Of a stretch of 64,000 bases of DNA, positions 1-24,650 are shown piece after piece. The DNA lies in IMG/VR virus record IMGVR_UViG_3300032007_000018, positions 72,445 to 136,444 of that record; one strand, 5' to 3'. Numbering within the stretch: position 1 is the first letter of the stretch; each line of letters begins with the position of its first letter. The notes beneath the pieces are model-generated. The model made no database searches and was not told the DNA's origin. It saw nothing but the letters and a program-made list of their open reading frames with translations. The DNA comes from a virus. A program made the position numbers and the translations under genes.

Positions 1-1272
1 AGTATCTACGGTAGAGAACCCAATTTGCACCCATAAATTTATCTGGTTTCTTCGCACCTATACTTTCCCTATACCATCGAATTTCGTATTCCGAACTTGA
101 ATCTTCTCCAAGATTATTTATAAAATCTCTATAAGAAACGGATTGAATGCGGTCATTACCAAAATCATGAATCCAGCGTAATCCAATTTCTTTTTTGTAT
201 AAATCATTATCTGTGAAATATAATTCACCAGTATTTTCATCTTCTCCTGTGGCAACAGGAAAATCATATGTTAAAGTACTTAAAGTAATTAACATACCTT
301 TCTCTTTCTAAAATGAACCTAAATCATATCCAAGACATAGATATGGGTCTCTTAGAAATATATTTGGCAAAATTTGAAAAGCATTTTCCTCTGCATCTAC
401 AACTTCACTTAAGTCTTCTCCATCGCCACCATAGTATTTCTAATCATCGTTATTAGAAGGAATATAAGGTGGAGATTCAATTAATCTTTCTGCTCTATCT
501 TTAAAGTTTCCTTTCTGGTAAAAAAATAGAGCCATAGAAGTTATATACTAATCTTTTAATGAAGATATATCAAAAACGGCTTCTTGAACATAATAGGATT
601 CAAAACTATATTTATCTCCGTAAAAGTCATCACTATCTAAAAAGAAAGTTTTTGTTGATACATCTTCCTCAGATTCTACATCTTCCTCAGATTTTGCATC
701 TGGACGAAAACAAACACGGAGCAATATTCCATAGTTGCCTTCGCAACAACCTAAATTGCTTAACCAAGTAGAAAACTCTCCACGCAATCCTATTCTGTCA
801 TATCCTGTTAGCGCAGCGGAATTACTGTCTTCTGCTGACCAGGTCCAAAATGCGTGTTTATCACGATCAACATTACCTTTATAACCGTGATTAGCCCACA
901 ACCATAGATCTTTATATTCTCCCTCTATTAAATTATTAGTTACATTAACTAAAGTTTCAAAAGGAGACTAAAAAATAGCAGCGGTATTCTTTTTAGTGGC
1001 CTATCGACCAATAATAATTTTAGGCTGACTATAATCATTATTTGGAATAGTAACTAGAACGCCATCATCATTCTTATAGCCTGTTTCTAAAGAATAAGCA
1101 GTAAAAGATACTGAACCATCTGAAACAGTATATTCACCTTCATTGGCTTTTTCATCGTTGACTATTGTGCAAGCAATCGTTGTATCAAAGTTAATTGATT
1201 TAATTCTCTCCTAAAAAAGGATATCCATCGCTTGTAACAAATTTTCAGCAATGTCTTTATTAGCGCCCATCT
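1..1272 (-). CDS. Tail protein encoded just after the tape measure gene. The gene runs off the window start, so its 3' part is missing. TAG-recoded.
   Basis: Minus frame is open from the ATG near 1272 to the window edge if TAG is sense. A Shine-Dalgarno AAGGAGGG sits upstream. Track fragment 548..901 lies inside in the same frame. Position is directly 3' of the tape measure gene. Confidence 0.5.
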
Positions 1273-1350
1273 ACTTTCCCTCCTTTTTCTCATATTTCTA
1301 TAATAACATAATTTTTTTGCGAAGTCAAATAATCTCATTAGGCCAAATAA

Positions 1351-1388
1351 AAAATAAAAAGGGTAGACCTATAAGTCTACCCTTTTTA
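1351..1388. terminator. Rho-independent bidirectional terminator
   Basis: Hairpin GGGTAGACC-tataa-GTCTACCC flanked by an A-run and a T-run. It lies immediately 3' of the TGA stop (1389-1391) of the tape measure gene. Confidence 0.7.
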
Positions 1389-4300
1389 TCAAACCCTAGG
1401 GGTTTTATATGTAATATTTGACGGTCTTGCTGCATATTGAGTTGCGCGATTAATAAGATTATTAAAAGCTTCTTCAATTTCAGTATGATCTGTTGCATTT
1501 GGAAATTCTGCATGAATTGTAACTTCTTGCTCTAACGTCTAATCCAGCCCTCCAAACGAAGGAGAATTGAGTCCCGTTGAAACACTGCTTGCGGCTGCGC
1601 GCAAATCAATGGCAGAGCTAATCTAACGAACCAGCTCAATAGTAGCAAGTATATTAGCAGTGTCTTCTGCGCCAAGGACAAGCTCTTTTTCGTGTAAGAT
1701 AGCTAATTTACCATCTGAACCCCACTCACCAGTATATCCTCCAGAAGCCATGCCGACTATTTCATTATATAATTCTCTTGTAAAATACTTACCAGATAAA
1801 TTAATACCTTTTTGCTATGCAGTCTAAAATATCTATGCTAATTCATCATTAGAAAGATAGCCCGTCGTTCCTTTACTATTACGAGTTCTAGCTAAAGCAT
1901 TATATCTCCCTGAGAACCCATTTGCTGCATACTCATTTGCCATTTCTTGAGAAAAATCTGAAACATTACTAAAGTCATACTAAGTTGCAGCGTCTCTTTC
2001 AGCCATATCCATAGCAGCCGCCAATCGCATATACGCCTGAATCATAGCCATAATCTAATCATATTGTAATGCCCATTCCTTAGTAACATCTGCTACAGAA
2101 GTAAGTAAATTACCAATGGTTGGAATTGTATTCGTAATTAATTCAGTCTTTAATTGTTGATTAGCAAGTTTTAATTCATCAGTTTTCTTCTTTAAATCCT
2201 GCAAGCCAAGAGAAGTGTTATCTGTAACCACTTGTCTATCAGCATCAAGCTAATCCATGGTATCTTTAATTTCTGTGAATGTATCAATGGTATCCTGTCT
2301 ATAATCAGAACCAGCATCAATAACATCTTTATATGCTGTAGTCCAAGCCTCTCTATGATCTGTAGTGGCAACTTCATCTAACCAGCCAAGAGCAGTATAA
2401 TAACTATGTCTCTAAGCCTCAAGCAAATCATCGTAATAAGCCGCCGTCTATAAATACTTTTCATCAAATTCAGCCTAAGTAGTAATTCTGCCCTCTTGGT
2501 AATCAAGAGCTAATTGTTGTAAAGCTTCATACTTCTCACGCTCAATTTGAGTAATCTTTTCTCCATAGTCGTTAGCTTGACCTAAAACTAAATTATAAAG
2601 ATCATTTTGCTTATCAGCAAAGTTCTATTCTGCGTCATTGATTTTATCCTAATCCGCAGTATAAACATAACCATAATTACCTTCGCTATCTCTCTGCAAG
2701 CGCACAATAGACTTAGCATTTTGTGCTTCTTCAAGAGCAATTTGCGCAAGTAATAATTCATAACGTGCTTTAGCAATATCTAAATCACTCTAATTTAATT
2801 TTTCCTACTTTTGCATTTGTTCAATCTCAGTAGAGAAATTCTTTAATTTAGTCTTTGCTGCAACACTATCTGTCTTATCTATGTCTTGAGAGAGCTTTCT
2901 TAATAAAGTGTTAGTTTCGTATATCTAATTAGTTTTTGTTAAATACTCTTCTTGAACGGCTTTAGCTCTTTCCATAGAATCTGCTAAGAAGTCCCATCCT
3001 AATCCCTTTGTTAAAGCATCTTCTCTAGCCGCCATGATTTTATCTAAAGTGTTTTTATATAATTCAACAACAGACTCTAAATAAGCTTCTGCGTCTTCAT
3101 ACATCTTATTCTCTGCTTCACGGGCTTGCGCGATGGCGGGGTCAAGAACGGCTTCTTTGAATTCGCGAGCAGCCTCCTCAGAGACAGCTGGATTATTAAG
3201 TAATTCTTGATAAGTTTTTCTTGCATTATCGGCCTACTCCTGGAACATTTTGTACTCGGCAGTAGATTCTTCTAATGCATTTCTCTCCATTTCAACAGTA
3301 GCTTTAAGAACCGTTTCCATAGATTTATAATCAAATTCCTTACCAGTCAAACTTAATAAATTCTTTAAATGCTCCATAATCTCAACGTGATGAGCCATCT
3401 AATCTGTAAGCTTACGTAATTCTTCAACAGCGCCATCTATAGTATCAGAGTAGAATTGACGCATCTTTTCATTCATATCAAGCAAGCTATCTATAACTTC
3501 ATAAATTCCATCACGTGCGGTTTGAACTGCCTATATAAACTAATCTTGACTAATCTCTTCTGCCTCATAAAGAGCTTGAGCGTTCTTGTAAGCTTCCTCG
3601 TATTCTTTTCCTCTATTGAGGAATGTTGAATACTGGCTATCTATCTTATTATCAGCAGAGAAAAGATTTTTCATTACTTCGACTGTTTTATAAACACTAT
3701 CGCCTAAAATTTTGGCAGCCATCTCTAAACGTTTTAATTGAGATTCATTTAAATCGACTTTAAGATCTAATTCAGTTTGCCACTTCTCAAAATTTAAATC
3801 CTACAACTATCTAAGTTTTTCAGCAAGATCATCATTAGTATCTTGCCAAAGCTCTGAAGTTTCTTTATATTGTTCAATAATATCTTTAATAGCTTCATAT
3901 TGAGCATTATATAATTCCGTTTTACCAGCATTATCCCAAGCTTCCTATCCAGCTGCGTCTAATTTATTATACTCTTCAATTTGTTTATTTTTATAATCTT
4001 CAAGTGCTTGCATTAACTCCTCATAATTTAACAACAAGCCAGTTTCTGTGTCAATTAAAGGCTATATGGTAGTAGCTTCAACAACGCTCATTATGTCAGC
4101 ATAATGTCCAGTTATATTACCTGCTGCGTCTTTTGTAGTATAATAAGCACCAATACCTCTAGATTCATCTGCTGCTATACCAGACATTAAATTATTATAA
4201 TCAATATCTTTATATTTTTTAATTTCATTAATATAATCTTTTGTTTTGCCAATAATTTTATTTAAAGCAGCAGTTTCTTTGTCGATAGCATTAAGTCTAT

Positions 4301-7300
4301 TTGCGCCAAATAAACGATCTTTCTCAGAAGACGCTCTACTATATTCTCTAGATAACTAACCCAATGAAGACTAAACATTTGCATAACGATTTTCTGTATG
4401 CTATTTCTAAGTGGCTTTGGATTTGCTACCTCCACCACCGCCACCTTTAGATCCGCCGCCTCCGCCAGAACGACCAGATGTGCTACTTACTTTACCACCA
4501 CCAGATTTATGTGCATTTGATAATTTAATACCAGTGGCGGTTGTTTGTTTAGTTACTTCATCTGTTACTGTGACAGGAGTAATGGTTTTATGATATTCTG
4601 GGAAGTGAGTAACCTATTTATTTAATTCACCAGTTTCTGTCTCAGTAGAGAAAAACATACCTGGCTTATCAACCACAGTTACTTTTTCATCAAAAGCAGT
4701 ATCCTAATTAACATCGGTAGATTCTGCTGTTACCGTTTTAGTTTCTGCATCAATAGAAGCATTAGCAATAATTGCATCACCTGCGGCCGCAGCTGCATTG
4801 GCAGCATCTTCCATTGAACCCATAAATGGAGTAACATCACAGTCAATATGCATTCCAGAAAGACGTGCTTGAATTTCATCTGCAGTTAATCCAGCCTATA
4901 CCCATGCTTCAAGCATAGCCTATAAAGCTGGACTATTATCAATATCAATAATAGCTCCATCAGCTAAATTTGCTAATTCGCTCTTTAACTGTTCTGAAAT
5001 TTCTGATAAGCCATATTCTTCAGCCTAGGCATCAATAAAAGCATCTCTAAGTTTATCTAAAGCTTCTTGAGCTTTAGTTCCACCTTCAGCTAAATCATTA
5101 AGAATATCCGAATCAATATTAGACATAAAATCAATACTAATTAATTCTTCATTTGTGTCTAATATATCTGCTAAAGTTTTTCTTAATGCTTTATAATTCT
5201 TTTCGCTTGCAACAGTTGCTTTCGCTTCTGCTGTTTCGGCTTTATTTAATCTTTTTATAACTGTTTCATAATCGGTGTAATTATCAGCTAAATCATTAAT
5301 ACCATTATTTAAACGTTTATAACGAGTGGCTGCATCAGCAGCTGCTTCTGCTATATCAGCAGTAATTCGTGCAGTATCTTTTTCTTCTGCGTTTAAATTT
5401 CCTAATAAATCTGTATTTTGACTAAAGATATCTGCTAATACTTCTAATTCATCCGCTTCTAAGCTAAAAGCATCAGCATCTTCAGCGACAGAAGTAGCAA
5501 CTGCTAAATTATGTTCAGCTACTTTAATAGCCTCTTCATCATTACTTCTTAAAGCAGCTTGATAGGCTTCTATTTCTTGTTTAGTATTATCATACTAAGC
5601 AGCAAGAGTGGTTAATGCTTCACCATAAGCCTATTGAGCTTCTCGTGAATTATTAGTTAAACCAGTTAATTCAGAATGACGCTATCCTAATTCTTGCATA
5701 TTTTTAGCAAGAGAAAGATACTAAAAACTTAATCCTTCTAATTTAGTCTACTCTTGTTCTAAACTACTAGTTAATGTATCAATCTCCTGAGTATCAGTTG
5801 CTGTAGCCAACTATGTTTGTGTATTCTAAATATTAGTATCGCTATAAGCAATTTCTCGGCTAAGTTCAGTTTTTCTTTCATTGGTTGCATCATTACGTAG
5901 CTCTTCAGCAGAACCAACCATTGCATAAGAATCATCAGCTTTTTGTCTGAAATATCCTTGCTAGCTAGGACTCAATTCTGCATAATCTTTTGCAGATATT
6001 TCTCCACCAGTGCTTACCTTGTTAATAATTTTTTGAACTTTACCAAATTTTTCAGCAAGTTCATCTACATTGACATTTCTAATTGCTTGTCCAGCAATTT
6101 CTATCTTCTTGGCAAATTGATCAAGATCTACACCAAAATCCATACCAAGACTCTATAAATATTCTTTAAACTATTCAATACTATCAAAATCAGAAAAATT
6201 AACTTTAGAAAAAGCTTCCGCAACTTCTGCCTATAATTCTTCTGGAATCTAATTAATAATTTCAGAAAAATCTGCCTTAATTTCACTATTATTCTTAAAT
6301 AATTCTTTAAGATTAATTAGCTAATCTACAGGTAAACTATGAAAAATATTCTAAATATCTTGAGGCAATGAAGCAAATTCATCTAGTAAAGCGGTTCTTG
6401 CACCTGTAATTGCCGCTATAAATTCATTTCCTGTCATACCTACTAAAGTAGCTATAGCAGATAATTCTGTTTTAGAAATATTTAATACCTCTAAAATAGA
6501 ATCTGTATCTGTCATTTTAGATAACTGATCAGCAGATAGAGAACCTAAAACGTCTGAAAAATTAGCCTATCCGCCATTTCTCATAGCAGATTCAGATAAT
6601 CCATTCGCTAGGTTACGAGCGCTTGTACCAGCACCTACGCCCTCTAATTGTCTAGTGATAAAATCAAAACCTTCTTGAACAGCTTCTCCGGCTGCCTAGC
6701 CTGCTATGGCAAGTTTTATAGTTTCAGCATCGATTGTGTCAATAATATTTCCAGCGGCATCTGTAAATGTATATACAAATTTATTGCCTTCTTTTTTAAT
6801 CGCGACATTCGTCTGATCGACTAAATCTTCACTAAAACCTCTTACACTAGATAAATATTGTTTCTTTAAATCTACAACTTCTGCATTTTTAGAATCTGTA
6901 CTATGACCATAACCTTCTCTAAAGCCATTATAAACTTTACTAAAAGCTTCTTGGCCATATTGGCCACCATAAAATAGCTAGGCTGAATCAGCGGTAATGC
7001 CGTTATTAGCAGCATATTTAATAGCTAAATTATTAGCAGTATCCTAAATTGCCTAATCAATTCTTGTCTATCCCTATTCAACCACATCATTCATATGAAC
7101 ATAGCCCTATGTGGTTGCATTAATCTAAGACACTAAATCTTCTATACTTGCTTTTATTGTTGGATCATCCAAAAATAGATCATTAGAAGCTCGCTCTTCA
7201 TCTGACCGGATTTGTTTAATTAAATCTTCTGTAGTAATCTATTTACCAGCCTATAAGAAATCTTGAATTTCTTCCCAGCTTAATAATTGTGTTCCAGCAA

Positions 7301-10300
7301 CACCACTTAAACCGCCGTAGTAGTCAGATGCAAGTTTACTATAAGCAGTATTATTACTTGCGTATGTAGATACCGTAGTTTCCTTAGAATGATATTTGTT
7401 TGCTCCTGCTGCACGGCCAGCCTCACCAAATTGTGCATATGATAATGCTTGTGCTTTAGTGGTCTCCTAACCAAGAAGTCCTTCAAGTACAGAAAGATTT
7501 AACGTACCATCTGGATTTAAAGCTCCTTCCATAGCTAATAACTATGGATATTTTTGTAAAATTTCATCTGTTTTATCAAGAGCATCCTGTAAAGCATCTT
7601 TCCATTCAGTAGTGCCCTTTGTACACTCTTCAAGTTTATGGACAATATCGCCATAACTATCGAATTCATACTTTAAATCTTTTGCTGCCTATTGAGTTTC
7701 ATCGAGTTCTTCCTTTAACCCTTCCGTCTCTTCGGCGATACTCTTCATTGTCTTATCATAATTAGAAACAGAAATTTTTTTGAGCCAACCAACTAATTTA
7801 ATAATACCAATAATTAAAGCTCCAACAGCAATAACAATTAAACCTATAACTCCTAGAGAGGCAAGCATAGAAGTATTTAATGCATCCGTCGCTCCCTTTA
7901 ATAACCAAGTAGCTGCAGCATGGGCTTTCTTTGCCACTATACCTGTCATATCAGCAGTTGTATTGGCAATTTTAGACAACGTATTAAAGGCAAACGCTCT
8001 AGTTTGTTGATTAGTCAGCGTAGTAATTACTGGAATAATCATTGATAAAGCTGACATAATTTGAATCGCTTTTTCTCCCGCTGATAAAGAATCATTACTA
8101 ATGATTGAATCAATATTGCGAATTGCATTAACAGCAGTATTTACACTCATCAACGCAGAAGCTAAAGCCGTAATCCCCGTTGATACTAAATCTATCTATG
8201 TTGTTAAACCAGCAATAGAATTTTTAGCGCCATCTACAGCGTTCTTATGACGATTTAATCCTTCAGCAGCATCCGTTGCTGCTGAAGCTTCACGCTAAAA
8301 CTATGTTGCTAAACGCTAAGCCATAGCTTCGGCATTCTCAACGCCCATATTTCTTAAAATATTAGTTAAATTTTCTATAGAAGGAGATAATCCTCCATCT
8401 ATATCTATTTTTAAAGTATCTAAAATAGCTATAGCATCATCAAACTAATTATTTATTAATGCGTTATTTAATTCAACTAATTCTTGCTAAAATTCATCTG
8501 TTCCAACACTAGCAGCCTAAAAAGCTTGCACCATTTTCTATAAAGCTTCTTTATTATTCTATATGCCTTTAATGTCCATTGGCATATTAATAATCTTTTC
8601 AGCATAAATACTATATGCTTTTTCAGTTTCGGTATATGCCTATCTTAACTACTTCTATTCTTGTATTAAATAATAGCTTTGACTTTTATTTTTCCCCTAA
8701 ATAGATCCATTTTGCTATCTAATCAGCTGATCTGTTCTTCTTTTTTCTTCATCCGCCGCTTTTCCTAAAGCAATAACTTCCTAACCTAAAGCATTATTAA
8801 TATCCAGAATCATCTATAATTGTTTTTGGCCCTATTCGCCTAAAGTTTTTGCTTTTTCAATTGCCATATCCTGCAGTTCTGCCTGTCCAGAATAAGCAGC
8901 TTTCATCGCATCTCCTTCATTACTCCCAGAAGCTTTAGATGCAATCTCCAGAAGTCCCGCATTAGCATCTTGTCTCAGCTACTAAATTTCAGCTCTTCCT
9001 TTTGCTGTTAAAGAATGTAAATCATTAATAGCATTACGGATAGAATTAGCAATCTAATTGCCGAATACCTAGGTAACAATGCTACCAATCAGAGTTAAAA
9101 GTGGACCGACACCACCAATACCCTCAATAAAATTATCAACAACACTTAAAACTTTTTCAAAGCCATTTAATAATTTTATGAAGAATTTGTCATCTAATAA
9201 ATCATTATAAATGTCTTGTGTTGCAGCTTTTACTCTCTTGCCAGCAGCTTCCCACGATTCTGCATAAATATCAGCCTGCTACTACAAGGTTCCTTCTGAG
9301 CCTTCTGCTAAGGCTTGATTTGCTTGAATCTTTCCGTAGTTATTCATAATAGCCATGAATTGAGCATACTATCTTGTACCAGCAACAGTTTCAGCTAACG
9401 CAACTCGTTGAGCTTCGTTAATTTGATTCCATTTTTCGGCTGTTTCATCAAGTATATCATCCATGACTTTCAATTCACCATTGGCATCAAGAATATTAAC
9501 ACCAATAGTAGCCAAAGCTTTTGAATATTTATTCAAATCTACGCCATCTTCAAGAGTCTCTCCAAGAGATAGGCCCTGGAAACGCGCGAACATGGTCTTA
9601 AAAGCAGTACCAACAACATCTGCACTTTGTCTGGTCTCGGCAACAACGGTAGCGAGCGCTGCAGTAGCTTTTTCATAACTTAAACCAACAGTATCCGCAA
9701 CTGATGCGAACTTTTGCAAACCTTGAGCAATCTCGTCTGAGCTAGAAGCTGTAGCAGCGCCTAACTTGGCAATAACATCAGCATAATATTCTAATGATTT
9801 AGAACCGTCATTAAAATTATTCCAAATGGCGGTCATTTGACTAGACACGTCTTCAGCACTTTGACGAGATACATTTGCAAGTTTCATAGTTACATTTGTT
9901 CTATCTGTAACATCTTTTCCAGTTAAACCTTGCTGATAATAGATCAAAGCGGCATCTGTATATGCAGTAGTTGTCGTACTTAATGCTCTTGCAGCTTTAT
10001 TGGCCTAATCAGCGAATTTAGCCATCTAATCCACTGATTGTCCCGTTACAATTCTAATATTATTTAAAGATTCATTTAAATCTTGAGCATATCCATAAGC
10101 ACCCTATAAAGCACCCATAAAGCCATGTAAAATGCTTGAAGAAATTTGCCATCTTGCAGTATTTCTTAATGTAGTAGCAAAATTAGCCAATAACGTATTG
10201 GAACGTTTCAGAGGGACTTCGGCCTTCATTATAGAAGTAGCTAAATTAGAAAAAGCCTAAGTTCCACTAGGACCTAATGCCATAAGCGCATTTTTATAAT

Positions 10301-10568
10301 CATTAATAGTTGTTTTGCTAGCTCTTAATTCATTATTAAATTTAGTTAAATTTAAATTTCCTGTTGAACTAGTAGCGGATTCTAACTAAACTTTTAGCTA
10401 TGCTGCTAGTGTAGTTGCTTTCTAAATATCTTTAGATAAAGGCATTTGAGAATTTTTCTGCGCAGAAGTCATAAGCTCTGTTAGCTATCTTTGTAAAGCC
10501 TATAATTCCGCTTTAGCCTTACTTGTATCAGCAGTCATAGCTAAATTAATATTTAATTGTTTAGCCAT
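1389..10568 (-). CDS. Tail tape measure protein, about 3059 aa, with many in-frame TAG codons
   Basis: Track fragments 9369..9947 (TMP N-domain-like: MTAIWNNF, TAFKTMFARFQG), 7689..8153 (hydrophobic segments), 5961..6143 and 3540..3722 are all in one frame, with codon high coordinate = 2 mod 3. Each fragment ends at CTA on plus, which is TAG on minus. The frame stays open from the ATG at 10568 (SD GGAG) to TGA at 1389 when TAG is read through. A Gly-rich segment lies near 4440-4500. Confidence 0.8.
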
Positions 10569-10600
10569 TAATTATACTACTCCTTTCTCTCCAAAAATTT

Positions 10601-10646
10601 GATATAAAAAAATAAGGGGATAGGAAAATAATCATTCCTATCCCCG
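10601..10646. terminator. Rho-independent terminator between the chaperone gene and the tape measure gene
   Basis: GGGGATAGGAA-aataatcatt-CCTATCCCC hairpin, followed by a T-run on the minus strand. Confidence 0.6.
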
Positions 10647-10684: not shown

Positions 10685-11218
10685 TTAACCAAGTTTGGTT
10701 AGAACATCTTTTAACAGTGTGAGCTGATTGGGATCTGCCATTTTATCTTTTAACGAGTCTGCGTCAAATTCAAGATTACTATAATCCGTTTTCATAGCAT
10801 CAAGAATACCATAGATACTATTACGATATTCATAAATATTTTGCGCGGTCTTACTCAACCACATAACGATACTCTAATATTCTCTCTAAGGCAATACTGC
10901 AAAGAAATCATCAAAGAATCCGCTTCCCGCAAGTAAGTCATAAAGTTTGGCAGGATCTTCTTTTTGCTTTTCTGTAAAACTAATATTACTATATCTAAAA
11001 ACCATTTCCAAATTCATGAAAAGGGCAATTTTTGCTTCATTAATGAAGTTATTATCATCTTGGCATTGATTTAATACTGCCGCAATTAATTCCATCTTCT
11101 CCTGGATTGGTAGATACTACTTAACTTCTACAATCTATCCATTCCAGTCAAAAGATGCTACTTCTGTATTTTTGGTTAAACCAAGTTTTGTAAAGGCTAC
11201 TTTACTCATTATTATTTT
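10685..11218 (-). CDS. Tail assembly chaperone-like protein, TAG-recoded
   Basis: ATG at 11218 with SD AGGAGG. Track ORF 10886..11095 is in the same frame. TAA stop at 10685. Lies immediately upstream of the tape measure gene, and its start overlaps the end of the upstream homing endonuclease gene. Confidence 0.5.
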
Positions 11219-11801
11219 CCTCCTTTATCTCATAAAAACTCCATCTTAAGCGCTCTTTTGTAATAGGGTGTTTTCCAGCGGTTTTTCTTTCTCCATTGCA
11301 ACAACGACTAATTGGAGTGCTATTTTTTAGTCCAGCCCATTCGGCCGCAAGCATCTAACTATCAAAAATTTGATTATTATTTAGACAGATTACTTTTTTC
11401 TTAACTTTCTAATGCATTTTTTCTAGATGCAATCGTAATTTATCTATATTGTTTTTAGCATATTCTTTATTACTTAAACTAATTTTCTATTTAGTTTCTT
11501 TGGATAATTTATATCCAGAATTTCCACCTGTTTTTAAATTATATCCTTTATTACGATTTATTGTATCAAAGTATGAGATATAATATTTTTCTTTTTCATC
11601 AGCTTCTTCAATAGAAAGGTTATCTTCTAATATAATATGCTCAAAATTTTCCCAACCATATTTCTGTATAGCATTATAGAAATAAGAGCAATCTTTGTAA
11701 GAAATAGGGTGCCATCTAATTTTTAAATTACAACTCTATCCAATATAAATTTTCCCATTGACCTTATTTTTATGCATATATATACAATAATCTTTTGCCA
11801 T
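11211..11801 (-). CDS. GIY-YIG homing endonuclease (TAG-recoded) inserted between the tail genes
   Basis: Translation reads MAKDYCIYMHKNKVNGKIYIG[TAG]SCN...YGWENF...GYNLKTGG. A GIY...YIG motif is followed by TAG at the conserved Gln position. Paralogous to 23873..24583 and 60324..61150. SD AAGGAG. Confidence 0.75.
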
Positions 11802-11862
11802 TTATAAACACTCCTTTTTCTCTTTATATCTAAATATATTATAGCAAAAATTTTGATTTATG

Positions 11863-12915
11863 TCAAATATAAATTTTAACATCTTTAACCTACTAAATTC
11901 GTTCTAGCGCAGCGCCTATTTCACCATCTTTTTTCATTAATCCCGATAAAATCTTATTTAATTCAGTACTAATATCTTTATCTAAAACACTACTCATATA
12001 AATTGCTAATTTTGTTGCTACTTCATAAGGAGTTTTCTATTCATTAAAAATTTCTGAATATAACTAAATACCAGTTCGTAAATTCTTTATACTTGATAAA
12101 CGCAATGTAGTATTAGCACTTTTTTCAGTAACACGAGCTTGCTTAACTTGCGTAGAACCGACATCTCCTGCAGCAGTACCTCTTTGATAACCAAGACTCT
12201 CATGCATATGCATCCATACTGTATCAGCTGGCTCATGCCATTTTGAATCTGCATTTAATCTTTCCATTTCAGTCATTCTAGCTTGTAGCATATCAGAAGG
12301 AGTTAAATTTGGATCTTTAGACATTTTATATAATTGCATATGATGTTCCTACAAATGTCTTTCATGTGCTTCAGCTACGTGACCCATATTAATATTACTA
12401 CCCTTATCACCAATATGAATATGATGTTCATTACTCTATACATACATGGCATCTACATATTCACTATAAAGCTTATAATGTTCATTAAATAATTCTAAAA
12501 TTTTTAATTGAGCTTGATTTGTGGTTTCTTTTTCAATGTCTTCTGCTAGTGCTTTTAGATTTAACATCAAACCACTACCATTAGAACGAAGCCAATCAAC
12601 TCTTAAATGATTAGCATAAGAAATTTTACCACGAAAATAAATTGCATAATCAACAGAACTATAAGTTTCAACTTCAATACCGAATTTCTAAATTAAATTA
12701 CGAATCTCAATAGAAACCTAAATAATTCTAGTATATGCCTAAAAAAGATTTGCTACATTTCCTCTTTTTTTAATATTAGAAAGTTCTATTTCTTCTAATT
12801 CATCTACAGCTTTCATTAATCCCTAATAATTCTAACTATTTTTTCTAACTTCATCAATTAAAATTGTAAAATGATCAATTAATTCTGATAAAGAAAAGTT
12901 TTCTGCTTCAGCCAT
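11863..12915 (-). CDS. Hypothetical tail-module protein, TAG-recoded
   Basis: ATG at 12915 with SD GGAGAGG. Track ORF 12064..12339 is in frame. The frame is open to TGA at 11863 when TAG is sense. Confidence 0.45.
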
Positions 12916-12942
12916 ATTGAATTACCTCTCCTTTTTCGCATA

Positions 12943-12977
12943 ATAAAAAAATGGGAGAAGACTTGCGTCTCCTCCCA
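12943..12977. terminator. Rho-independent terminator after the major tail protein gene
   Basis: TGGGAGAAGAC-ttgc-GTCTCCTCCCA hairpin plus a T-run on the minus strand. Confidence 0.65.
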
Positions 12978-12988
12978 TTAAAGTTTCA

Positions 12989-13984
12989 TTAGTCAATGAA
13001 GAATGCATCGTGTGCTACTTCGTGAGCAGTGCGATGACGTACAAGATCGCTGTCGCTAAGTTCGTTAACGATCTGAATAGCAGCGAGAACCTTCTTTGTC
13101 TTATCAAATCTGGTGTAATCTGGGAATGCATCCATCGTAAAGGTGAATGTACTTGGATCGCCAGAAGAAGCCATAGTGAAGGTAAAGTTAGACTGAATCT
13201 TGCAGTTAGGAATAATGAATTCAGCAGGCATATCTACGCCATCAGTGTTGCGGAAGAGGGTAGAAGCCTCAAGATAATAGTTACCGCCAAACTTATCAGC
13301 AGAAATCTCAATTTGCTGAGTGTTAGAAGTCTTTTCAGTGTAATAGTCAACAAGAACAACTGCACCAGGACCAAATACACTTAAATCATCGCCATTGTCA
13401 ATGGTATTAGTGTTAAGAGTAAGCTTCCAAAGTCCAGCAAAATCTCCAGTACCTTCCTCAAGATCACCTGCAACAGCCTCAACAGGAATATAAGGCTCAG
13501 TTGCAACTTCGCCATTTTCCAGAGCCATTACATAAATGTAATCTTCTGTATCTGCAGAAGTAGGAAGATAAGGCTTTTGCTTTACATAAACTTCAACACT
13601 CTGTACAGCATAGTTGCTGGTACCCCAAATACCAGTAGAGGTAATGTGGGTAGCATCAGTTTGCTCGGTTACGTGAACCTTAATTGGCTTAGCTGCAGTA
13701 GCTTCAATAAGACCGGCACCAGAAAGAATCATGAAACCAGCAGGAGAGATAAGAGCATCTTCCATAGTGAAGGTTACTGTACGCTCACCTTCCCAAGCTA
13801 CGAGACGAGCATTACCACGACCACCCTGTGCATAAACAGTAGTAGCAGCACCTTCCATGCTGGAGGTCTTGAGACTATCAAAATAAATAACAGGCTCATT
13901 CTTATAGAAAACCTTATTACCAATCTTTTGAGCGGCCTTAGCCTTAAGGACTACATCGCAAATTTCGCGTACGCCAAATCTCAT
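12989..13984 (-). CDS. Major tail (tube) protein, putative
   Basis: Intact 331-aa ORF with no TAG and higher GC than its neighbours, which suggests high expression. Lies upstream of chaperone and tape measure genes and is followed by a terminator. Confidence 0.5.
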   Translation of the reverse strand: MRFGVREICDVVLKAKAAQKIGNKVFYKNEPVIYFDSLKTSSMEGAATTVYAQGGRGNARLVAWEGERTVTFTMEDALISPAGFMILSGAGLIEATAAKPIKVHVTEQTDATHITSTGIWGTSNYAVQSVEVYVKQKPYLPTSADTEDYIYVMALENGEVATEPYIPVEAVAGDLEEGTGDFAGLWKLTLNTNTIDNGDDLSVFGPGAVVLVDYYTEKTSNTQQIEISADKFGGNYYLEASTLFRNTDGVDMPAEFIIPNCKIQSNFTFTMASSGDPSTFTFTMDAFPDYTRFDKTKKVLAAIQIVNELSDSDLVRHRTAHEVAHDAFFID

Positions 13985-14010
13985 AATTAGTTTCCTCCTT
14001 AAATATTATT

Positions 14011-14720
14011 TTAGTGAATGTTTTTCATCCAGTTGTCAGGTTGATGATCAGGTTTGCCACCAGCCAAACGAGACCGGATATCGAGGTCCCAATTCACATA
14101 AAGCATATATCTTTCAACTAAGTCAAAAAGCTAATACATTGTCAGTTCTCCGCATTCTCTTAACGTCATGGAATTTAACCCAACGGTTAAAACTGACATA
14201 TACTGCGCGAAAACGCTTCCACCGCCATCACTTTTTTGTGCGGCAACGCGCTGTCGCGCACGCATCAGCTTTTCGGCGATTTCTCTAGCTTTTTCTCCTT
14301 GTGGATTAAAAGACTATGTTTCCATAGGACCATTGTTAATACAAAAAATTTTGCCTAAGATATTCTGAAAAGGTTCAAAGTTAGTTTCATCAATCATTAC
14401 ATTATTATCATCGTTTTTTAATATTATTGCTCTTGGAGTTAATAACATTTGATAGTTAGGTAAAATTAATGGAAAAATCTGTCGAACCGCTTCTTTCTTA
14501 TCAAGAGCTTCTTTTTCTTGCATTATCGTCATAAATATCTAAAAATTGTTAGTATTTGCTAAAAGAGTTTCGCCCTAAGCAATCATATTTTTATTCACCG
14601 ACAGAGTTTGTACTCCTGTGAAGAAATCTGAATCCCCTATAAGGGCAATTTCTCGTAAACGAGGTTGATGTACTATTAATTGACATTCTGGAATTGGAAT
14701 ATCAGTGCCGCACATCAGAG
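14011..14720 (-). CDS. Hypothetical neck or tail-terminator region protein, TAG-recoded
   Basis: Track ORFs 14314..14532 and 14575..14832 are in one frame. A likely start overlaps the upstream TGA as a TGATG junction. TAA stop at 14011. Confidence 0.35.
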
Positions 14721-14731
14721 CCAGCCGCATA

Positions 14732-15388
14732 TCAAAGGCCATTTGAAGGATCGTTAAATACCTTATTAAAATTTTCAAATAAGGTTTTATTGCCCTTAGA
14801 ATCCATTGGATACTTAGAATCTTCTCCCTCATAGCCGTGAATAGCCTAATACATTAAGGTTAAACCAGCAAATTCATCTGATAAAACGATTTGATTACAA
14901 CCTAAAAATTGCAATGTTCCAATACCAGTTAATTTTTTATTATTAAACATAGTATCAATTTCACTAGCAATTTTATAAGGTCTAAGTTGAAAATCGCCAA
15001 GATTCCACTGATTAAAATGACAAACAATATCAAAACTGACTATATTATCTCTAAATTCTGGATTTGTCATATTTGGAGTAAAATTATCAAAACTGATAAC
15101 AACATAACACAATTCTGGTCTATCAACCTTCAACTTAGGAATAATTTTTATCTATTGCCCAAACATTGACAAAGATTCTTCCTCAGTTAAATCCCTCCAT
15201 CCTTTACCAAGGATATGCTTTTCTCCAGAATCTTTATAATCTAACCCTGATATTAAAGCGTCAGATGAATCATACCATAATAATCTTTTTAATCGGTCAT
15301 TCTTTAAAAAGTAAGATACGATAATATTCATATCTTTTTCTACTGCTAAAAAAGAAGAATGAGGATACTAAAAAGTCTAAACCTTCAT
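14732..15388 (-). CDS. Hypothetical structural protein, TAG-recoded
   Basis: ATG at 15388 with SD AAAGGAG. Track ORF 14846..15133 is in frame. TGA stop at 14732. Confidence 0.45.
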
Positions 15389-15406
15389 AAGCAAAACTCC
15401 TTTATC

Positions 15407-16477
15407 TCAAAACAACGATTCAACTATAATAGTTTTTGTTGTTGTGCCTTTTATTAAATCAAACTGCCCACTATAACCAGCAGTCCATTCTAATTCAATA
15501 GTGTTTTTATCAATTTCTTTAAATTTTACAGGATATTTTTTATCAATAAACCAATCTCCAGAAGATAAACCGGTATAAGTATAAATATATTTTCCTTTTG
15601 GCTTAATAAAAGTTTCTCCTTCAATACTTTTTTCAGTACGTTCAGAGTTAGGATTCTCTTCCTAAAGAATTAATCCACCTGCAACGCCATTTTCTACATC
15701 GTCTTCAAATTCATTAGCGTAATACTCAACAGCATTTACCTGAAGAATTCCAGGAGTAGATATCCAGTCAATGGCTTCTACTCTCCAGCATACTTTTTTC
15801 TAATCTTCTAATACATAGAATTTTGCATATCGATTAAAATAGTTCAAATTAAACTAATTGGCTGGAAGTAAAATATTTAAAGAATAATTAGGTCTATCAA
15901 CACTAATACCATTTTTTTGAATATAATTTATTTTAGTTTCAACAGGGCCGCGAATTGCGGCATATGTCATATGCTCAATTCCGTCCTCATCTTGAAACCA
16001 AATCGTATATCTACATCTTCTAATTTCACCACGAAAATAAGCAAGTTCAGTTTTATCTTGCAAATAAATTAACCAATACGTATTTGTATTTACCCATTCA
16101 AAAACATCACCAGGCTAATAACCATGTTCATATCCTATTGAAATAATTTTATCATCATAATCCTGTTTTACTTTATCTGGATTAATTAAAGCACGAACAG
16201 GAGGCTAATTACGAAGCATTTCATCAATATTCTCCTCGATGGGAAAATATTTTTTTACAAAAGCTCCCTAATAAGAATAAAGCACGGCTTTATCTAAACT
16301 TCGACGCTTATCTCGGATCATTCGCTCTTGCTGCATCCTACCTCCAGCTTGGCGCAAACGCTAATACATATCAACCACTCCATCGCAAGCGGTAGCGCTA
16401 TTGAATTTTGGGGTAGAAAGTCTTCCTGTACGAGCACCCATTGATCTAATACTGGGACTTGAATAATTATGTTTCAT
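15407..16477 (-). CDS. Hypothetical structural protein, TAG-recoded
   Basis: ATG at 16477 overlaps the upstream stop as ATGA. Track ORF 15854..16063 is in frame. TGA stop at 15407. Confidence 0.45.
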
Positions 16478-16779
16478 TTCATCAACCCCCGTAATAGACT
16501 AATTGATTCAAATACGGTTTTTCTATAAAAATCAAAGTCAGTAGCTCCAACTCTAATTCCTTCTAATTTAGCAAGTAGCTATAAAAATTGCGGGTTCTCA
16601 ATAAAAATCTCATTAAGCCCCGCAATTTCCAGAATTACTGTATTAAGTTGTTTTTCCCAATTCTCACCGTTTTCACGCATGGGAATTAATTTCCACATCT
16701 GATTTGTTAATCGAGTAATATTCTTTTCAAACACGTCAAACGAGAAATTAAAATCGTATTTAGTAGCCATATCTATCAT
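16474..16779 (-). CDS. Small hypothetical protein, TAG-recoded
   Basis: Track ORF 16579..16803 is in frame. SD GGAAGAGG lies before the ATG at 16779. TGA at 16474 overlaps the next start. Confidence 0.4.
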
Positions 16780-17392
16780 AATAGACACCTCTTCCAAATA
16801 CATCCCAATTAGAACGATATATGCCAGTGCTTAAAGGACGTCTACGCTTATATAAGCGCTACATATGAATAGACTATCTTTGACATTCATTTAACAATCC
16901 CATTAATTTCTATAAATGATTTGCCTAAGAAGTCATTTTAAAATCGCTTCCAGAATACTTCATACGAGTATTTTCAATAGAAGTAACTTGTCTCTATACC
17001 CAAGCGCACATCATTAGAATAGCTATGATATTGATTTCTTCTGTTGTTAATTCAAAATTAAACGTAGAAGCATCTACCATAACAACATCTTCTTCTGGAG
17101 AATTTTCACCATCTAATTGCTCTGCTAAATCGTCTAAGACAGGATTATCTAATTCTTCCCATTTAATACGATCAATTACAAAGTCATGATCGTCAATATC
17201 TCCAGCATGTTTAGGAATTACTTTTAATTCATAATTACTTAAATTACACCTTGGGAATTCAAACCCCGGCAAAGCATCAATTAATAAATTTTGTAAGTCA
17301 CGATAAGTATCTTCGGGAGTTAACTCTACATACATATCATCTGTAATTTTTCCAAGAAAGCGATCATAAATAGCACCAAAAGGAGTACCCAT
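16760..17392 (-). CDS. Head-tail adaptor-like protein, TAG-recoded
   Basis: Track ORF 16994..17392 (acidic, DxxxLxxL-like N-terminus). SD AAGGAGGG. The frame extends through TAGs to TAA at 16760. Confidence 0.4.
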
Positions 17393-17421
17393 TTATTTAC
17401 GCCCTCCTTATATTAGTCTGT

Positions 17422-17985
17422 CTATTTGTTGACAACCTTATAGTTAGAAGCAGTACGGCGACCAGAGGTAGCGGTTTCAGTCTTCACTCTACGCTCGGGC
17501 GCAAGTGGCTCAATATGATCTTGCTCCTCTGCCTTTTCCTCTTCAATATGCACAAGAGCCTTATCAACATCAAATCCTGTTTTGTCTTTAAGAGCTTTTC
17601 TCTTATTAAGATCTGTTAAAGGAAGTTTAACAGCCATGGATTTAATAAGATCGATGACACCAAGCGGTGCAAAATCAAGAGCATCTAAGAAGGCATCAAG
17701 AGAGCCACTAATTAGAAGATCTCTTACCTACGCCTCAGACATATCATACTCAATTTCACGATGAACATTAAGGTCATTTGTTACAGCTTCATCAATAATC
17801 TGTAAAAACTGTTCTAACATTTCACGTCCGCCCTGTTGATAAGTAAGCTTCTCAAGTTCCCCAAAAGGAATTCTCTTCACTTCTCCTGGAGCAAATTCAC
17901 GACGCAAATTGCTTTCTGGAATCCTATAAACAACAGTGCTTGCGCTTCTATTCTTTACGTTATACATTGTATCTTGATTAATCAT
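17422..17985 (-). CDS. Hypothetical head protein, TAG-recoded
   Basis: Track ORFs 17728..17985 and 17422..17637 are in one frame, separated by TAG. SD AAAGGAGA. Confidence 0.5.
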
Positions 17986-18015
17986 AATTTTTCTCCTTTA
18001 TCTCTAAATACTAAC

Positions 18016-18052
18016 AAAGAAAAGGGGAGAGGGGAACTTCCCCGTCTCCCCC
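18016..18052. terminator. Rho-independent terminator after the major capsid gene
   Basis: GGGGAGAGGGG-aactt-CCCCGTCTCCCC hairpin plus a T-run on the minus strand. Confidence 0.65.
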
Positions 18053-18064
18053 TACATTTCTTTA

Positions 18065-19171: not shown

Positions 19172-19189
19172 TACTCTTCTCTCCTTTCA

Positions 19190-20206: not shown

Positions 20207-20226
20207 CGTTCAGTTTTCCTCCTTCA

Positions 20227-21795: not shown

Positions 21796-21811
21796 TTCAG
21801 ACCTCCTCAAC

Positions 21812-23499: not shown

Positions 23500-23856
23500 T
23501 TAATAGCCAGCTTTGTGCATTATATAGTCATAAGAAATTAAATTTTCTTCGGTATAAGGAATTTCAATTAACTTAAAATCATGTAAAGCACAAAATCTTC
23601 GCTTTCGGTTATCATTGTATTGTTGTTGATAGAGGCCACGTTTTCCACCAAACTTCTAGCTAGCCTCATAATGCTACCTACCTTGATATTCTATAATAAA
23701 GTCAATTTGTCCATCATCATCAAATACAACAAAATCAAAACGAAGAGGTCTGCCACTGTCAGCCTTCAAATCTGGAAAGCTATACTCCTCTTTAAAAGTA
23801 AGCCCAGACTCAGCCAGAATTTCTTCAATCTTAATTTCTCCTCTTGAAGCTCGCAT
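23500..23856 (-). CDS. Vsr/DUF559-like (PD-(D/E)xK) endonuclease, TAG-recoded
   Basis: Motif FDFVVFDDDGQIDFIIEYQGR[TAG]HYEAS[TAG]KFGG. This aligns to IRLIEFDGEQHYKPVQRFGG of 30490..31241, and both TAGs align to Gln. SD AAAAGGAGAGG. Confidence 0.6.
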
Positions 23857-23872
23857 AATACCTCTCCTTTTC

Positions 23873-24583: not shown

Positions 24584-24650
24584 ATACTATTCAACTCCTT
24601 CCATAGAAATATGAAATTAGTTTTAATAGTATTGACTTATACTGTCCAAG

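What the first reader, a model, noticed from the sequence alone, without database searches (positions are those of the whole stretch)
1389..10568. Exceptionally long tape measure gene (about 9.2 kb, about 3059 codons)
Frame continuity is supported by four independent track fragments, all with codon high coordinate = 2 mod 3, and by manual translation of 1389-1740, which is open apart from TAG. At about 0.15 nm per residue this predicts a tail of roughly 450 nm. The gene carries a Gly-rich flexible segment near 4440-4500 and hydrophobic helices at 7700-8150. It may also harbour extra enzymatic domains, such as a peptidase or lysozyme, as some long tape measure proteins do.
Basis: partly seen in the sequence, partly recalled or inferred. 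Interest (0 to 1): 0.6.

Follow-up and report, generated by a model that had tools for sequence, protein, structure and literature searches.

The report
Giant TAG-recoded phage tape measure gene
This is a real 3,059-codon phage gene for the protein ruler that sets tail length, readable only if the stop codon TAG is taken as glutamine; it predicts a tail of roughly 430-490 nm, but it is a normal-sized member of a large, already described family of giant tape measures.

Summary
On the minus strand, ATG at 10568 to TGA at 1389-1391 is one 3,059-codon frame with 94 in-frame TAG, no TAA and no internal TGA (chance about 1e-112). Code-aware gene calls on two other assemblies record the same 3,059-aa product.

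It is a tape measure protein (TMP). It matches PF10145 and TIGR01760 well above their cut-offs. It sits in an SPbeta-like siphovirus tail module, between a YomU-type tube gene and the distal tail gene. TAG as Gln is supported by homologue alignment.

"Exceptional" holds only against textbook phages. Among the top 150 representative homologues, 113 are at least 2,500 aa, 39 are longer than this one, and the maximum is 3,985 aa. Published precedents are phAss-1 (3,149 aa, TAG-recoded), Tsamsa (3,123 aa, 440 nm tail), Enterococcus phage VRE9_2 (2,673 aa) and P23-45 (5,002 aa).

No enzymatic domain was found with Pfam, NCBIfam, PHROGs, or PDB sequence and profile searches.

Verdict: a new member of a known kind, of low to moderate interest. 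Side observation: in close relatives using three different genetic codes, this same gene is interrupted by a single in-frame stop.

The parts
1389..10568 (-). Tape measure protein gene: 3,059 sense codons plus TGA, with 94 in-frame TAG read as Gln. Product 335.5 kDa, pI 4.6.
10580..10585 (-). Shine-Dalgarno-like AAGGAG, 11 nt upstream of the ATG
   Evidence: sequence read
10616..10645 (-). Intrinsic-terminator-like hairpin plus T-run between the YomO-like gene and the TMP start. A possible attenuator that lowers TMP expression relative to the tube and chaperone genes (inference).
   Evidence: 1 found against 0.2 expected
9378..10001 (-). PF10145 PhageMin_Tail domain (aa 190-397), inside TIGR01760 tape_meas_TP901 (aa 152-490 = nt 9099-10115). 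Free of TAG (aa 189-399).
9063..9131 (-). Hydrophobic helix, aa 480-502
7788..8216 (-). Cluster of hydrophobic, transmembrane-like helices: aa 785-816, 834-852 and 901-927 (the strongest, KD19 = 3.0)
4506..7787 (-). Poorly conserved middle region (aa ~928-2021). Amphipathic and helical, with no recognisable domain. aa 1659-1847 is predicted all-helical. In relatives the stops and frame changes fall mostly in the part corresponding to window aa ~1530-1970, with L004's TAG just past the Gly run at aa ~2077.
4416..4505 (-). Gly-rich linker SGGGKVSSTSGRSGGGGGSKGGGGGGSKSK (aa 2022-2051). The poly-Gly tract is conserved in the family consensus, directly before the C-module.
1392..4415 (-). Conserved C-module (aa 2052-3059, 114 kDa). 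It includes the ERYH...AKDRAFG block (nt 4269-4406) and the LAEIALEEAQNAK...RD.EGN.GYVYTAD block (nt 2589-2921).
1425..1745 (-). Conserved C-terminal end (aa 2942-3048, GGYTGEWG...LHEKELVL...AEFPNATD). It is shared with TMPs of Enterococcus VRE9/EF1, SPbeta-like and Tsamsa-like phages. Presumed docking end in the tail-tip hub.
1353..1390 (-). Intrinsic-terminator-like hairpin (17 pairs) plus T-run, overlapping the TGA stop
   Evidence: 1 found against 0.1 expected
10685..11209 (-). YomO-like / phrog_30570 gene (174 aa, 4 TAG) directly upstream of the TMP in all relatives. A candidate tail assembly chaperone (inferred from position only).
12989..13984 (-). Tail tube gene (331 aa, 0 TAG), PF27173 YomU_Tube, phrog_2729
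1..1309 (-). 5' part of the post-TMP distal tail gene (ATG at 1309, runs off the window). Homologous to the 1,218-1,952-aa post-TMP genes of relatives.

Best explanation
The gene encodes the tail length tape measure protein of an uncultured SPbeta-like siphovirus from an animal-gut metagenome. Its late genes are written in genetic code 15 (TAG = Gln). Shown here: it is one 3,059-codon frame; it carries the TP901-type TMP domain near the N-terminus; it has hydrophobic helices, a long amphipathic helical body, a family-conserved poly-Gly linker and a conserved C-module and C-terminal end; it lies between the tube/YomO-like genes and the distal tail gene; and homologues have Gln at the TAG positions. 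Inferred from established knowledge of lambda gpH, TP901-1, SPP1 and T5 tape measures: late in infection a TAG-decoding tRNA-Gln lets ribosomes read through the 94 TAG codons. That tRNA is phage-encoded in phAss-1 and was not located here. The conserved C-terminal end docks in the tail-tip hub. The YomU-type tube protein polymerises around an extended bundle of TMP helices and stops at its N-terminal end, fixing the tail at about 430-490 nm (about 110 tube rings). On infection the TMP is ejected first, and its hydrophobic helices help form the channel through the host envelope. The heavy TAG load (47% of Gln codons) makes synthesis of the ruler depend on the code switch, so tails cannot be built early.
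For: Single open frame with statistics. The same 3,059-aa call on ENA and Logan contigs, with identical DNA. PF10145 at 103.8 bits against a cut-off of 33.2, and TIGR01760 at 111.3 against 28.8. The top PHROGs are all TMP families. The window is syntenic with relatives whose genes carry SPbeta Pfam families, and the window's own tube, YomW, YomV, YonD and YonB carry them too. The PHROG order is the same as in cultured Enterococcus phage VRE9_2, whose TMP is 2,673 aa. 97 giant homologues match both the N- and C-ends. Helical periodicity is present in 53% of windows against 5% expected. The family profile hits only coiled-coil proteins and the SPP1 TMP gp18 in PDB. AF2 secondary structure is all-helical, at low confidence. 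TAG = Gln: Q sits at 31% of TAG columns against a 6.8% background, and at 10 of 34 in a standard-code relative. No late gene ends in TAG. ORF coverage of the late module rises from 0.32 to 0.94 with TAG as sense. Length-to-tail calibration comes from Tsamsa (3,123 aa, 440 nm; PMC3903500) and P23-45 (5,002 aa, 800 nm; bioRxiv 10.1101/2022.12.01.518664).
Against: No virion, electron microscopy or proteomic data exist for this phage, so the tail length and the full-length product are inferences. No CTA-anticodon suppressor tRNA was found in the 64-kb window or in the 15-tRNA array within 10 kb of its right edge; about 80 kb of the genome could not be examined. In several relatives the homologous frame is interrupted in the middle, so a two-polypeptide organisation is possible in the family. 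Tsamsa's TMP runs as two virion bands (PMC3903500).
Confidence: 0.85

Rival explanations
1. Two-piece ruler. The N-module (aa 1-2021, 219 kDa) and the C-module (aa 2052-3059, 114 kDa) act as separate polypeptides, either cleaved at the conserved poly-Gly linker or encoded separately in relatives. In that case the tail length would not simply equal 3,059 aa times 0.15 nm.
For: The poly-Gly tract followed by a conserved C-module is a family feature. Relatives L002, L004, L005, L006 and L007 have the frame broken between the equivalents of window aa ~1530 and ~2080. Database entries such as P0121 (994 aa) consist of the C-module alone. Tsamsa's TMP appears as 280 and 100 kDa virion bands (PMC3903500).
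Against: 113 of the top 150 representative homologues are single products of at least 2,500 aa, and 97 match both ends. The breaks in relatives are not at one homologous site, and two lie inside conserved blocks, which points to read-through or error rather than a gene boundary. Tsamsa's 440 nm tail fits its full 3,123 aa.
Confidence: 0.15
2. Leaky gate. Some of the 94 TAG codons still terminate part of the time, so the gene yields a ladder of truncated products. Only a small full-length fraction would be made, and that would tune TMP dosage.
For: TAG makes up 47% of Gln codons in the TMP but 0% in the capsid, tube and 338-aa proteins, the likely most abundant virion components. Terminator-like hairpins bracket the gene. 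Standard-code relatives carry single in-frame stops in this gene.
Against: With 94 sites, even 95% read-through per site would leave under 1% full-length product, so decoding must be close to complete. The conserved C-terminal end needed for assembly lies after all 94 TAGs.
Confidence: 0.08
3. The protein hides an enzymatic or effector domain, such as a lysin, peptidase or polymerase, as in SPbeta YomI or P23-45.
For: There is precedent. SPbeta-like YomI homologues are annotated as transglycosylases, and the P23-45 TMP carries an RNA polymerase (bioRxiv 10.1101/2022.12.01.518664). About 2,000 aa of the protein have no assigned family. Helix periodicity is weaker in the aa 1801-2100 block (20% of windows above the threshold) and from aa 2701 to the C-terminus (14%).
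Against: Nothing was found in Pfam at E up to 0.1, NCBIfam, PHROGs, PDB phmmer, or a 31-sequence family profile against PDB. The same holds for the TMP pieces of L002, L005 and L007.
Confidence: 0.07
4. Assembly artefact or pseudogene: two or more genes joined by a mis-assembly, or a dead gene.
For: Related contigs do show frame changes (L006, L007).
Against: Three assemblies are identical over the region. The frame has no TAA or TGA in 3,059 codons. Both ends are conserved against many full-length homologues.
Confidence: 0.01

Closest known systems
phAss-1 / proposed Phassvirus tape measure proteins (3,149, 3,150 and 3,209 aa; Babkin et al. 2023, PMC10607447; OQ749652)
   Same: A giant TMP in a gut-metagenome siphovirus-type phage of about 135 kb with TAG read as Gln. 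The gene is shattered into fragments in standard-code annotation (17 'hypothetical proteins'). Homology is detectable at the N-terminal domain (31% identity), across aa 1751-2849 (22%) and at the C-end (35%).
   Different: Identity is only about 22-35% and there is no nucleotide-level match, so it is not the same genus. phAss-1 has three identified suppressor tRNA-CTA genes; none was located for this phage.
Enterococcus phage VRE9_2 / EF1 / EF5 / H1 tape measure protein (PP680568, CDS 14929-22950, 2,673 aa, phrog_34405)
   Same: This is the closest cultured counterpart. It falls in the same top PHROG family and is preceded by the same PHROG order (31155, 6123, 4051, 2729 tube, 30570). The N-terminal domain is about 35% identical and the C-terminal end 38%.
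   Different: It uses the standard code, is 386 aa shorter, and its middle region cannot be aligned with this one.
Bacillus phage Tsamsa tape measure protein (3,123 aa, measured tail 440 nm; PMC3903500)
   Same: It is in the same size class and belongs to a giant Firmicutes siphovirus, which gives an experimental length-to-tail calibration. The C-terminal end motif is shared with the Tsamsa-like phages Nate and Thrax2 (37% over about 85 aa).
   Different: It uses the standard code, comes from a cultured temperate phage, and shows only end-domain similarity. Its TMP is seen as two virion bands.
Bacillus phage SPbeta YomI and the SPbeta structural module
   Same: The window's capsid, tube, YomW-, YomV- and YonD-like proteins carry the Pfam families defined on SPbeta. 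The YomI N-terminal domain is 23-25% identical, and the C-end is 44-45% identical over 71 aa.
   Different: YomI homologues are annotated as lytic transglycosylases, and no such domain is found here. From memory rather than a test here, YomI is shorter at about 2,285 aa. SPbeta uses the standard code.
Thermus phage P23-45 / P74-26 tape measure protein (5,002 aa, tail about 800 nm to 1 um; bioRxiv 10.1101/2022.12.01.518664, PMC10034513)
   Same: It shows that much longer tape measures and tails exist, with a similar nm-per-residue ratio (0.16).
   Different: It carries an N-terminal RNA polymerase domain. Its host is a Gram-negative thermophile. No sequence relationship was tested or expected.
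Lambda gpH / TP901-1 TMP (the mechanistic paradigm)
   Same: Ruler principle, TP901-type domain (TIGR01760), hydrophobic segments, and a position between the tube/chaperone genes and the tip genes.
   Different: This protein is about 3.5 times longer than gpH (853 aa, from memory). No overlapping G/GT-type frameshifted chaperone pair was recognised upstream, and this was not specifically tested.

Membership tests
Phage tail tape measure protein, TP901 / PhageMin_Tail type | Match to PF10145 above the gathering score | tested here: met
   103.8 bits against 33.2, aa 190-397, full profile 1-201
Phage tail tape measure protein, TP901 / PhageMin_Tail type | Match to TIGR01760 tape_meas_TP901 above the cut-off | tested here: met
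   111.3 bits against 28.8, aa 152-490
Phage tail tape measure protein, TP901 / PhageMin_Tail type | Gene lies in the tail module, after the tube and chaperone-position genes and before the distal tail genes | tested here: met
   Tube at 12989-13984, YomO-like at 10685-11209, TMP, then the post-TMP gene syntenic with relatives
Phage tail tape measure protein, TP901 / PhageMin_Tail type | Predominantly alpha-helical or coiled-coil body with hydrophobic segments | tested here: met
   Helix periodicity in 53% of windows against 5% expected. The profile hits only coiled-coil PDB chains and SPP1 gp18. AF2 secondary structure is all-helical, at low pLDDT. Hydrophobic helices are present.
Phage tail tape measure protein, TP901 / PhageMin_Tail type | Protein length determines tail length, and the protein is present in the virion | not testable with these tools
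   This needs electron microscopy, virion proteomics and deletion mutants
SPbeta-like siphovirus structural module | Capsid, tube and neck proteins belong to the SPbeta-defined Pfam families (YonB, YonD_N, YomW, YomV_2nd, YomU_Tube) | tested here: met
   Precomputed Pfam hits on proteins identical to the window's. The local Pfam copy lacks these models.
SPbeta-like siphovirus structural module | YomI-type TMP carrying a lytic transglycosylase or peptidase domain | tested here: not met
   No such domain in the window TMP or in the relatives' TMP pieces
Code 15 (TAG = Gln) recoded phages | In-frame TAG restores full-length late genes, and TAG is not used as a terminator in them | tested here: met
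   Coverage rises from 0.32 to 0.94. All 20 complete late genes end in TAA or TGA.
Code 15 (TAG = Gln) recoded phages | TAG positions align with Gln in homologues | tested here: met
   Q at 31% of TAG columns against a 6.8% background, and at 10 of 34 in the standard-code relative P0038. Some homologues were themselves translated with Q, so the pooled figure is partly circular.
Code 15 (TAG = Gln) recoded phages | Phage-encoded suppressor tRNA with a CTA anticodon | tested here: inconclusive
   None in the window or among the 15 tRNAs just beyond its right edge.
Proposed genus Phassvirus (phAss-1 group) | Nucleotide identity of the order reported among members (80-86%) | tested here: not met
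   No megablast match for the TMP region or for 30-50 kb. TMP amino-acid identity is 22-35%.
Tape measure proteins with a fused enzyme (P23-45 RNA polymerase type) | Recognisable catalytic domain within the TMP | tested here: not met

The most novel reading that the evidence does not exclude
In this clade of SPbeta-like gut phages the tape measure gene may be the recurrent checkpoint for genetic-code switching. The window phage loads it with 94 TAG codons while keeping capsid and tube free of TAG. Close relatives that otherwise use the standard code (L002, L005, L007) or a TGA-recoded code (L004) each carry exactly one in-frame stop in this same gene, two of them inside conserved blocks. If these stops are real and are read through by phage suppressor tRNAs, then making the ruler, and therefore any tail, is gated by the code switch. 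The relatives would then be snapshots of how recoding begins or is lost.
Probability: 0.15. Interest if true: 0.6.

Novelty: new member of a known kind. Interest (0 to 1): 0.25.

Why it matters
There are three practical points.

1. Standard-code annotation shatters this 9.2-kb gene into dozens of fragments, as on the JGI contig and in the GenBank record of phAss-1. Such phages therefore look as though they lack a tape measure, and any tail length or morphotype predicted from gene size will be wrong unless code 15 is used.

2. The gene predicts a very long flexible tail of about 430-490 nm for an uncultured animal-gut phage. The family search shows that giant tape measures of 2,500-4,000 aa are common in metagenomes, not a curiosity.

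3. The protein's size and high TAG count make it a good target for proteomic confirmation of TAG = Gln.

None of this changes current understanding of how tape measures work.

Tried and rejected
- **Whole-protein word-indexed search.** It failed internally.
- **C-terminal word-indexed search.** My query began with the poly-Gly run, which hijacked the word index, so it returned only one hit.
- I therefore used P0121, a database homologue of the C-module, and a TAG-free stretch of the window protein instead.
- **Structure models.** Both were single-sequence and of low confidence (pLDDT 43.8 and 54.3). I used only their secondary structure and ran no fold search, because the matches would have been meaningless.
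- **Local Pfam copy.** It lacks the PF27xxx SPbeta families, so scanning the neighbours gave nothing. I relied on the precomputed hits instead.
- **Extending past the left edge.** An exact 40-mer from the window's left end found nothing in viral contigs or metagenome contigs.
- **Extending to the right.** This reached a tRNA array but no CTA suppressor.
- **Conserved read-through site.** I considered that the single in-frame stops in relatives mark one conserved programmed read-through site. I rejected this because they map to six different positions, window aa ~1529 to ~2077. Same-frame adjacency across TAA also occurs by chance in these loci.
- **Recent tandem duplication as the cause of the length.** Rejected: self-BLAST and TRF found no internal repeats.
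- **A third genetic code in the 29-50 kb block.** Rejected: its real genes are small standard-code genes on the plus strand, and the long minus-strand ORFs look like antisense artefacts.
- **Tail length of VRE9 phages.** A literature search found nothing relevant.

Full report
**Observation**

Under the standard bacterial code, window 1389-10568 contains only ORFs of 212 aa or less. If TAG alone is treated as sense, a single stop-to-stop frame of 3,061 codons appears on the minus strand at 1389..10571. The gene starts at ATG 10568, preceded by AAGGAG 11 nt upstream, and ends at TGA 1389-1391. It has 3,059 sense codons, 94 of them TAG.

The frame holds no TAA and only the terminal TGA, while the other two frames on the same strand hold 125 and 372 TAA+TGA. 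At the off-frame rate of 0.081 per codon, an open run of this length has a probability of about 1e-112. Shuffled sequence never gave more than 199 open codons.

The gene is not peculiar to one assembly. Contigs from JGI (155.5 kb), ENA (104 kb) and Logan (57 kb) are 100% identical to the window over 15.7-21 kb, including the first 2,526 codons and 78 TAGs. The ENA and Logan gene calls, made with a code-aware caller, list one 3,059-aa product with PF10145, whereas the standard-code JGI calls shatter it. These assemblies may derive from related read sets, so this shows agreement between assemblers, not necessarily between samples.

**Genetic code**

- Treating TAG as sense raises coverage of the 1-29 kb minus-strand module by ORFs of at least 100 aa from 0.32 to 0.94. 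No other reassignment does this.
- All 20 complete late genes end in TAA or TGA, never TAG.
- In alignments with 120 homologues, the window's 36 N-terminal TAG positions face Gln in 31% of cells. The background is 6.8%, and genuine CAA/CAG positions reach 45%.
- In P0038, which comes from a relative with no TAG in its first 1,651 codons, 10 of 34 aligned positions are Gln.
- TAG supplies 47% of the Gln codons in the TMP but none in the capsid, tube and 338-aa proteins.

No tRNA with a CTA anticodon lies in the window, whose only tRNA is Lys-CTT at 40483-40558. None is among the 15 tRNAs of an array starting about 2.7 kb beyond the right edge. About 80 kb of the genome was out of reach, so the decoding agent is inferred by analogy with phAss-1, which encodes three (PMC10607447).

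**Identity**

The protein matches PF10145 (103.8 bits, cut-off 33.2, aa 190-397) and TIGR01760 tape_meas_TP901 (111.3 bits, cut-off 28.8, aa 152-490). Its best PHROGs are all tape measure families, led by phrog_34405 and phrog_4211, whose profiles are 2,675 and 2,625 positions long.

The surrounding minus-strand genes form a head-to-tail module:

| Window coordinates | Gene |
|---|---|
| 27681-28616 | sigma-like |
| 24651-26405 | terminase |
| 21807-23396 | portal |
| 20227-21795 | YonD-like |
| 18065-19171 | YonB-type capsid |
| 14732-15388 | YomW-like |
| 14011-14832 | YomV-like |
| 12989-13984 | YomU-type tube |
| 11863-12915 | 350-aa gene |
| 11202-11801 | GIY-YIG homing endonuclease |
| 10685-11209 | YomO-like |
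| 1389-10568 | TMP |
| 1-1309 | large distal tail gene, runs off the window |

The SPbeta Pfam families are precomputed on proteins identical to the window's. The module is collinear with relatives L002 and L003, with the capsid 87% and the tube 59% identical to L002. No sheath gene is present. By homology to SPbeta, which is a siphovirus (my own knowledge), this is a long non-contractile tail.

The cultured Enterococcus phage VRE9_2 has the same PHROG order ahead of a 2,673-aa TMP in phrog_34405.

**Anatomy**

- The N-terminal ~490 aa are the conserved TMP domain and are free of TAG over aa 189-399.
- Hydrophobic helices lie at aa 480-502, 785-816, 834-852 and 901-927.
- The stretch from aa ~930 to ~2020 is poorly conserved. 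It shows strong amphipathic-helix periodicity: over the whole protein, 53% of 70-aa windows exceed the shuffled 95th percentile.
- A Gly-rich run at aa 2022-2051 (nt 4416-4505) is conserved as poly-Gly in the family consensus. A conserved C-module of about 1,000 aa follows directly, ending in GGYTGEWG...LHEKELVL...AEFPNATD at aa 2942-3048.
- That end is shared with the TMPs of Enterococcus VRE9/EF1, SPbeta-like, Tsamsa-like, Sundance and PMBT69 phages. It is 58-69% identical in the closest relatives.
- There are no internal repeats.
- Poly-Gly tracts are a common TMP feature (PMC13585406).
- Terminator-like hairpins on the coding strand bracket the gene at 10645-10616 and 1390-1353.
- The product is 335.5 kDa with pI 4.6.

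**Extra domains**

None was found. Pfam at E up to 0.1, NCBIfam, PHROGs and phmmer against PDB showed nothing beyond the TMP domain. The TMP pieces of three standard-code relatives were also clean. A profile built from this protein plus 30 giant homologues hit only coiled-coil or helical-bundle chains and the SPP1 tape measure gp18.

Single-sequence AlphaFold models of a TAG-free middle stretch (aa 1659-1847) and of a C-module homologue (P0121) were of low confidence but all-helical. Deep-alignment modelling of the actual protein could not be run, because the tools refuse TAG=Q translations.

**How unusual is the length?**

An exhaustive phmmer search with the C-module homologue P0121 found 2,227 representative clusters at E up to 1e-3. 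Of the best 150:

- 113 are at least 2,500 aa;
- 50 are at least 3,000 aa;
- 39 are longer than this protein;
- the maximum is 3,985 aa;
- 97 match both the N-terminal domain and the C-terminal end of the window protein.

Published cases:

| Phage | TMP length | Notes | Source |
|---|---|---|---|
| phAss-1 and relatives | 3,149-3,209 aa | TAG-recoded | PMC10607447 |
| Bacillus phage Tsamsa | 3,123 aa | measured tail 440 nm | PMC3903500 |
| Thermus phage P23-45 | 5,002 aa | tail about 800 nm | bioRxiv 10.1101/2022.12.01.518664 |

The length is therefore large by textbook standards but ordinary for this family. Applying the Tsamsa ratio, the alpha-helix rise and the P23-45 ratio gives 431, 459 and 489 nm.

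**Mechanism**

The shown and inferred steps are set out in the best explanation. In brief, the protein is a ruler translated only once TAG is decoded. Its conserved C-end is anchored at the tail tip, and the tube polymerises along it to its N-terminus. On infection it is ejected, and its hydrophobic helices help form the channel. These steps rest on established knowledge of lambda gpH, TP901-1, SPP1 and T5 and were not tested here.

**Side observation**

Database calls of about 1,580-1,683 aa for relatives are truncations of the same giant gene:

| Locus | Code | Interruption | Total frame |
|---|---|---|---|
| L002 | standard | one TAG at codon 1652, frame then open | 3,236 codons |
| L005 | standard | one TGA at codon 1581, then 1,275 more codons | 2,856 codons from the ATG |
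| L007 | standard | one TAG at codon 1604, then a frame change | not a single frame |
| L004 | TGA-recoded | one TAG at codon 1656 | 2,649 codons from the ATG |
| L006 | TAG-recoded | TAA at codon 1683, then a frame change | not a single frame |

The downstream pieces are homologous to the window's C-half. The breaks map to six different places, window aa ~1529 to ~2077, two of them inside conserved blocks. They may be sparse recoding, real splits, defective genomes or assembly errors, and I could not decide between these.

**Verdict**

'Exceptional' and 'extra enzymatic domains' are not supported. This is a new member of a known kind.

Noticed in passing
L002:10001-19711, L004:2702-10651, L005:10001-18571, L007:7692-17091, L006:4255-13688 (equivalent to window aa ~1529-2077 of the TMP): In close relatives the homologous giant TMP frame is interrupted once in its middle. 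L002 and L007 (standard code) have a single TAG. L005 (standard code) has a single TGA. L004 (a TGA-recoded relative) has a single TAG. L006 and L007 also have a stop followed by a frame change. The downstream pieces are homologous to the window's C-half. The breaks fall at six different positions, two of them inside conserved blocks. Database 'TMP' entries of about 1,600 aa are therefore truncated calls. The cause is unresolved: sparse recoding, read-through, split genes or errors.
   Followed up: partly
L002-L007 compared with window 10685-21795: One clade with near-identical structural modules (capsid 80-87% identical to the window's) contains phages that use three different codes in their late genes: standard (L002, L005, L007), TAG as sense (window, L003, L006) and TGA as sense (L004). 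In L002 all 13 other genes in the locus end in TAA.
   Followed up: partly
window 18065-19171, 19190-20206, 12989-13984 (minus strand): The capsid, the adjacent 338-aa protein and the tail tube have zero TAG codons and higher GC (0.41-0.45). In the other complete genes of the late module TAG supplies 18-67% of Gln codons, and GC is 0.27-0.39. This may reflect selection for efficient translation of the most abundant proteins, or recent exchange with standard-code relatives.
   Followed up: partly
window ~29000-58000: This block has GC of 41-51%, against about 34% in the late module, and opposite skews. It encodes small standard-code genes on the plus strand, including an exonuclease-like gene at 38158-38820, a deoxyribonucleotidase-like gene at 34647-35153 and a phrog_5889 gene at 44685-45311, plus tRNA-Lys(CTT) at 40483-40558. 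The long minus-strand ORFs there look like antisense artefacts. There is no nucleotide match to any phage record. The sharp compositional split between the early and late regions is unexplained.
   Followed up: partly
window 11202-11801, 23873-24604, 23500-23991 (minus strand); 60324-61151 (plus strand): Three GIY-YIG homing endonuclease genes and one HNH gene are inserted in or next to the structural module. The one at 11202-11801 sits between the 350-aa gene and the YomO-like gene and is absent from L002. All of them contain in-frame TAG codons (2-7 each), so these mobile genes are themselves written in the recoded code.
   Followed up: partly
L014:14464-20867 (about window coordinates 66.7-73.1 kb, just beyond the right edge): There is an array of 15 tRNA genes by ARAGORN (14 by Rfam). 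None has a CTA anticodon. One Rfam tRNA at 15909-15986 has an atypical anticodon arm that ARAGORN did not resolve. The array runs to the end of the fetched sequence.
   Followed up: partly
window 10616-10645 and 1353-1390 (minus strand): Intrinsic-terminator-like hairpins with T-runs bracket the TMP gene, and the downstream one overlaps its TGA stop. They might lower TMP transcription relative to the tube gene.
   Followed up: no
window 27681-28616 (minus strand): A sigma-factor-like gene (phrog_5767, E = 8.5e-49) with 7 in-frame TAG codons sits at the head of the recoded late module, next to the strand switch at about 29 kb.
   Followed up: no
(contig size classes): One contig in the 0.2-1 Mb size class carries the identical capsid and tube proteins. 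It could be a prophage in a bacterial contig, which would name the host, or a mis-assembly. It was not among the places shown.
   Followed up: no
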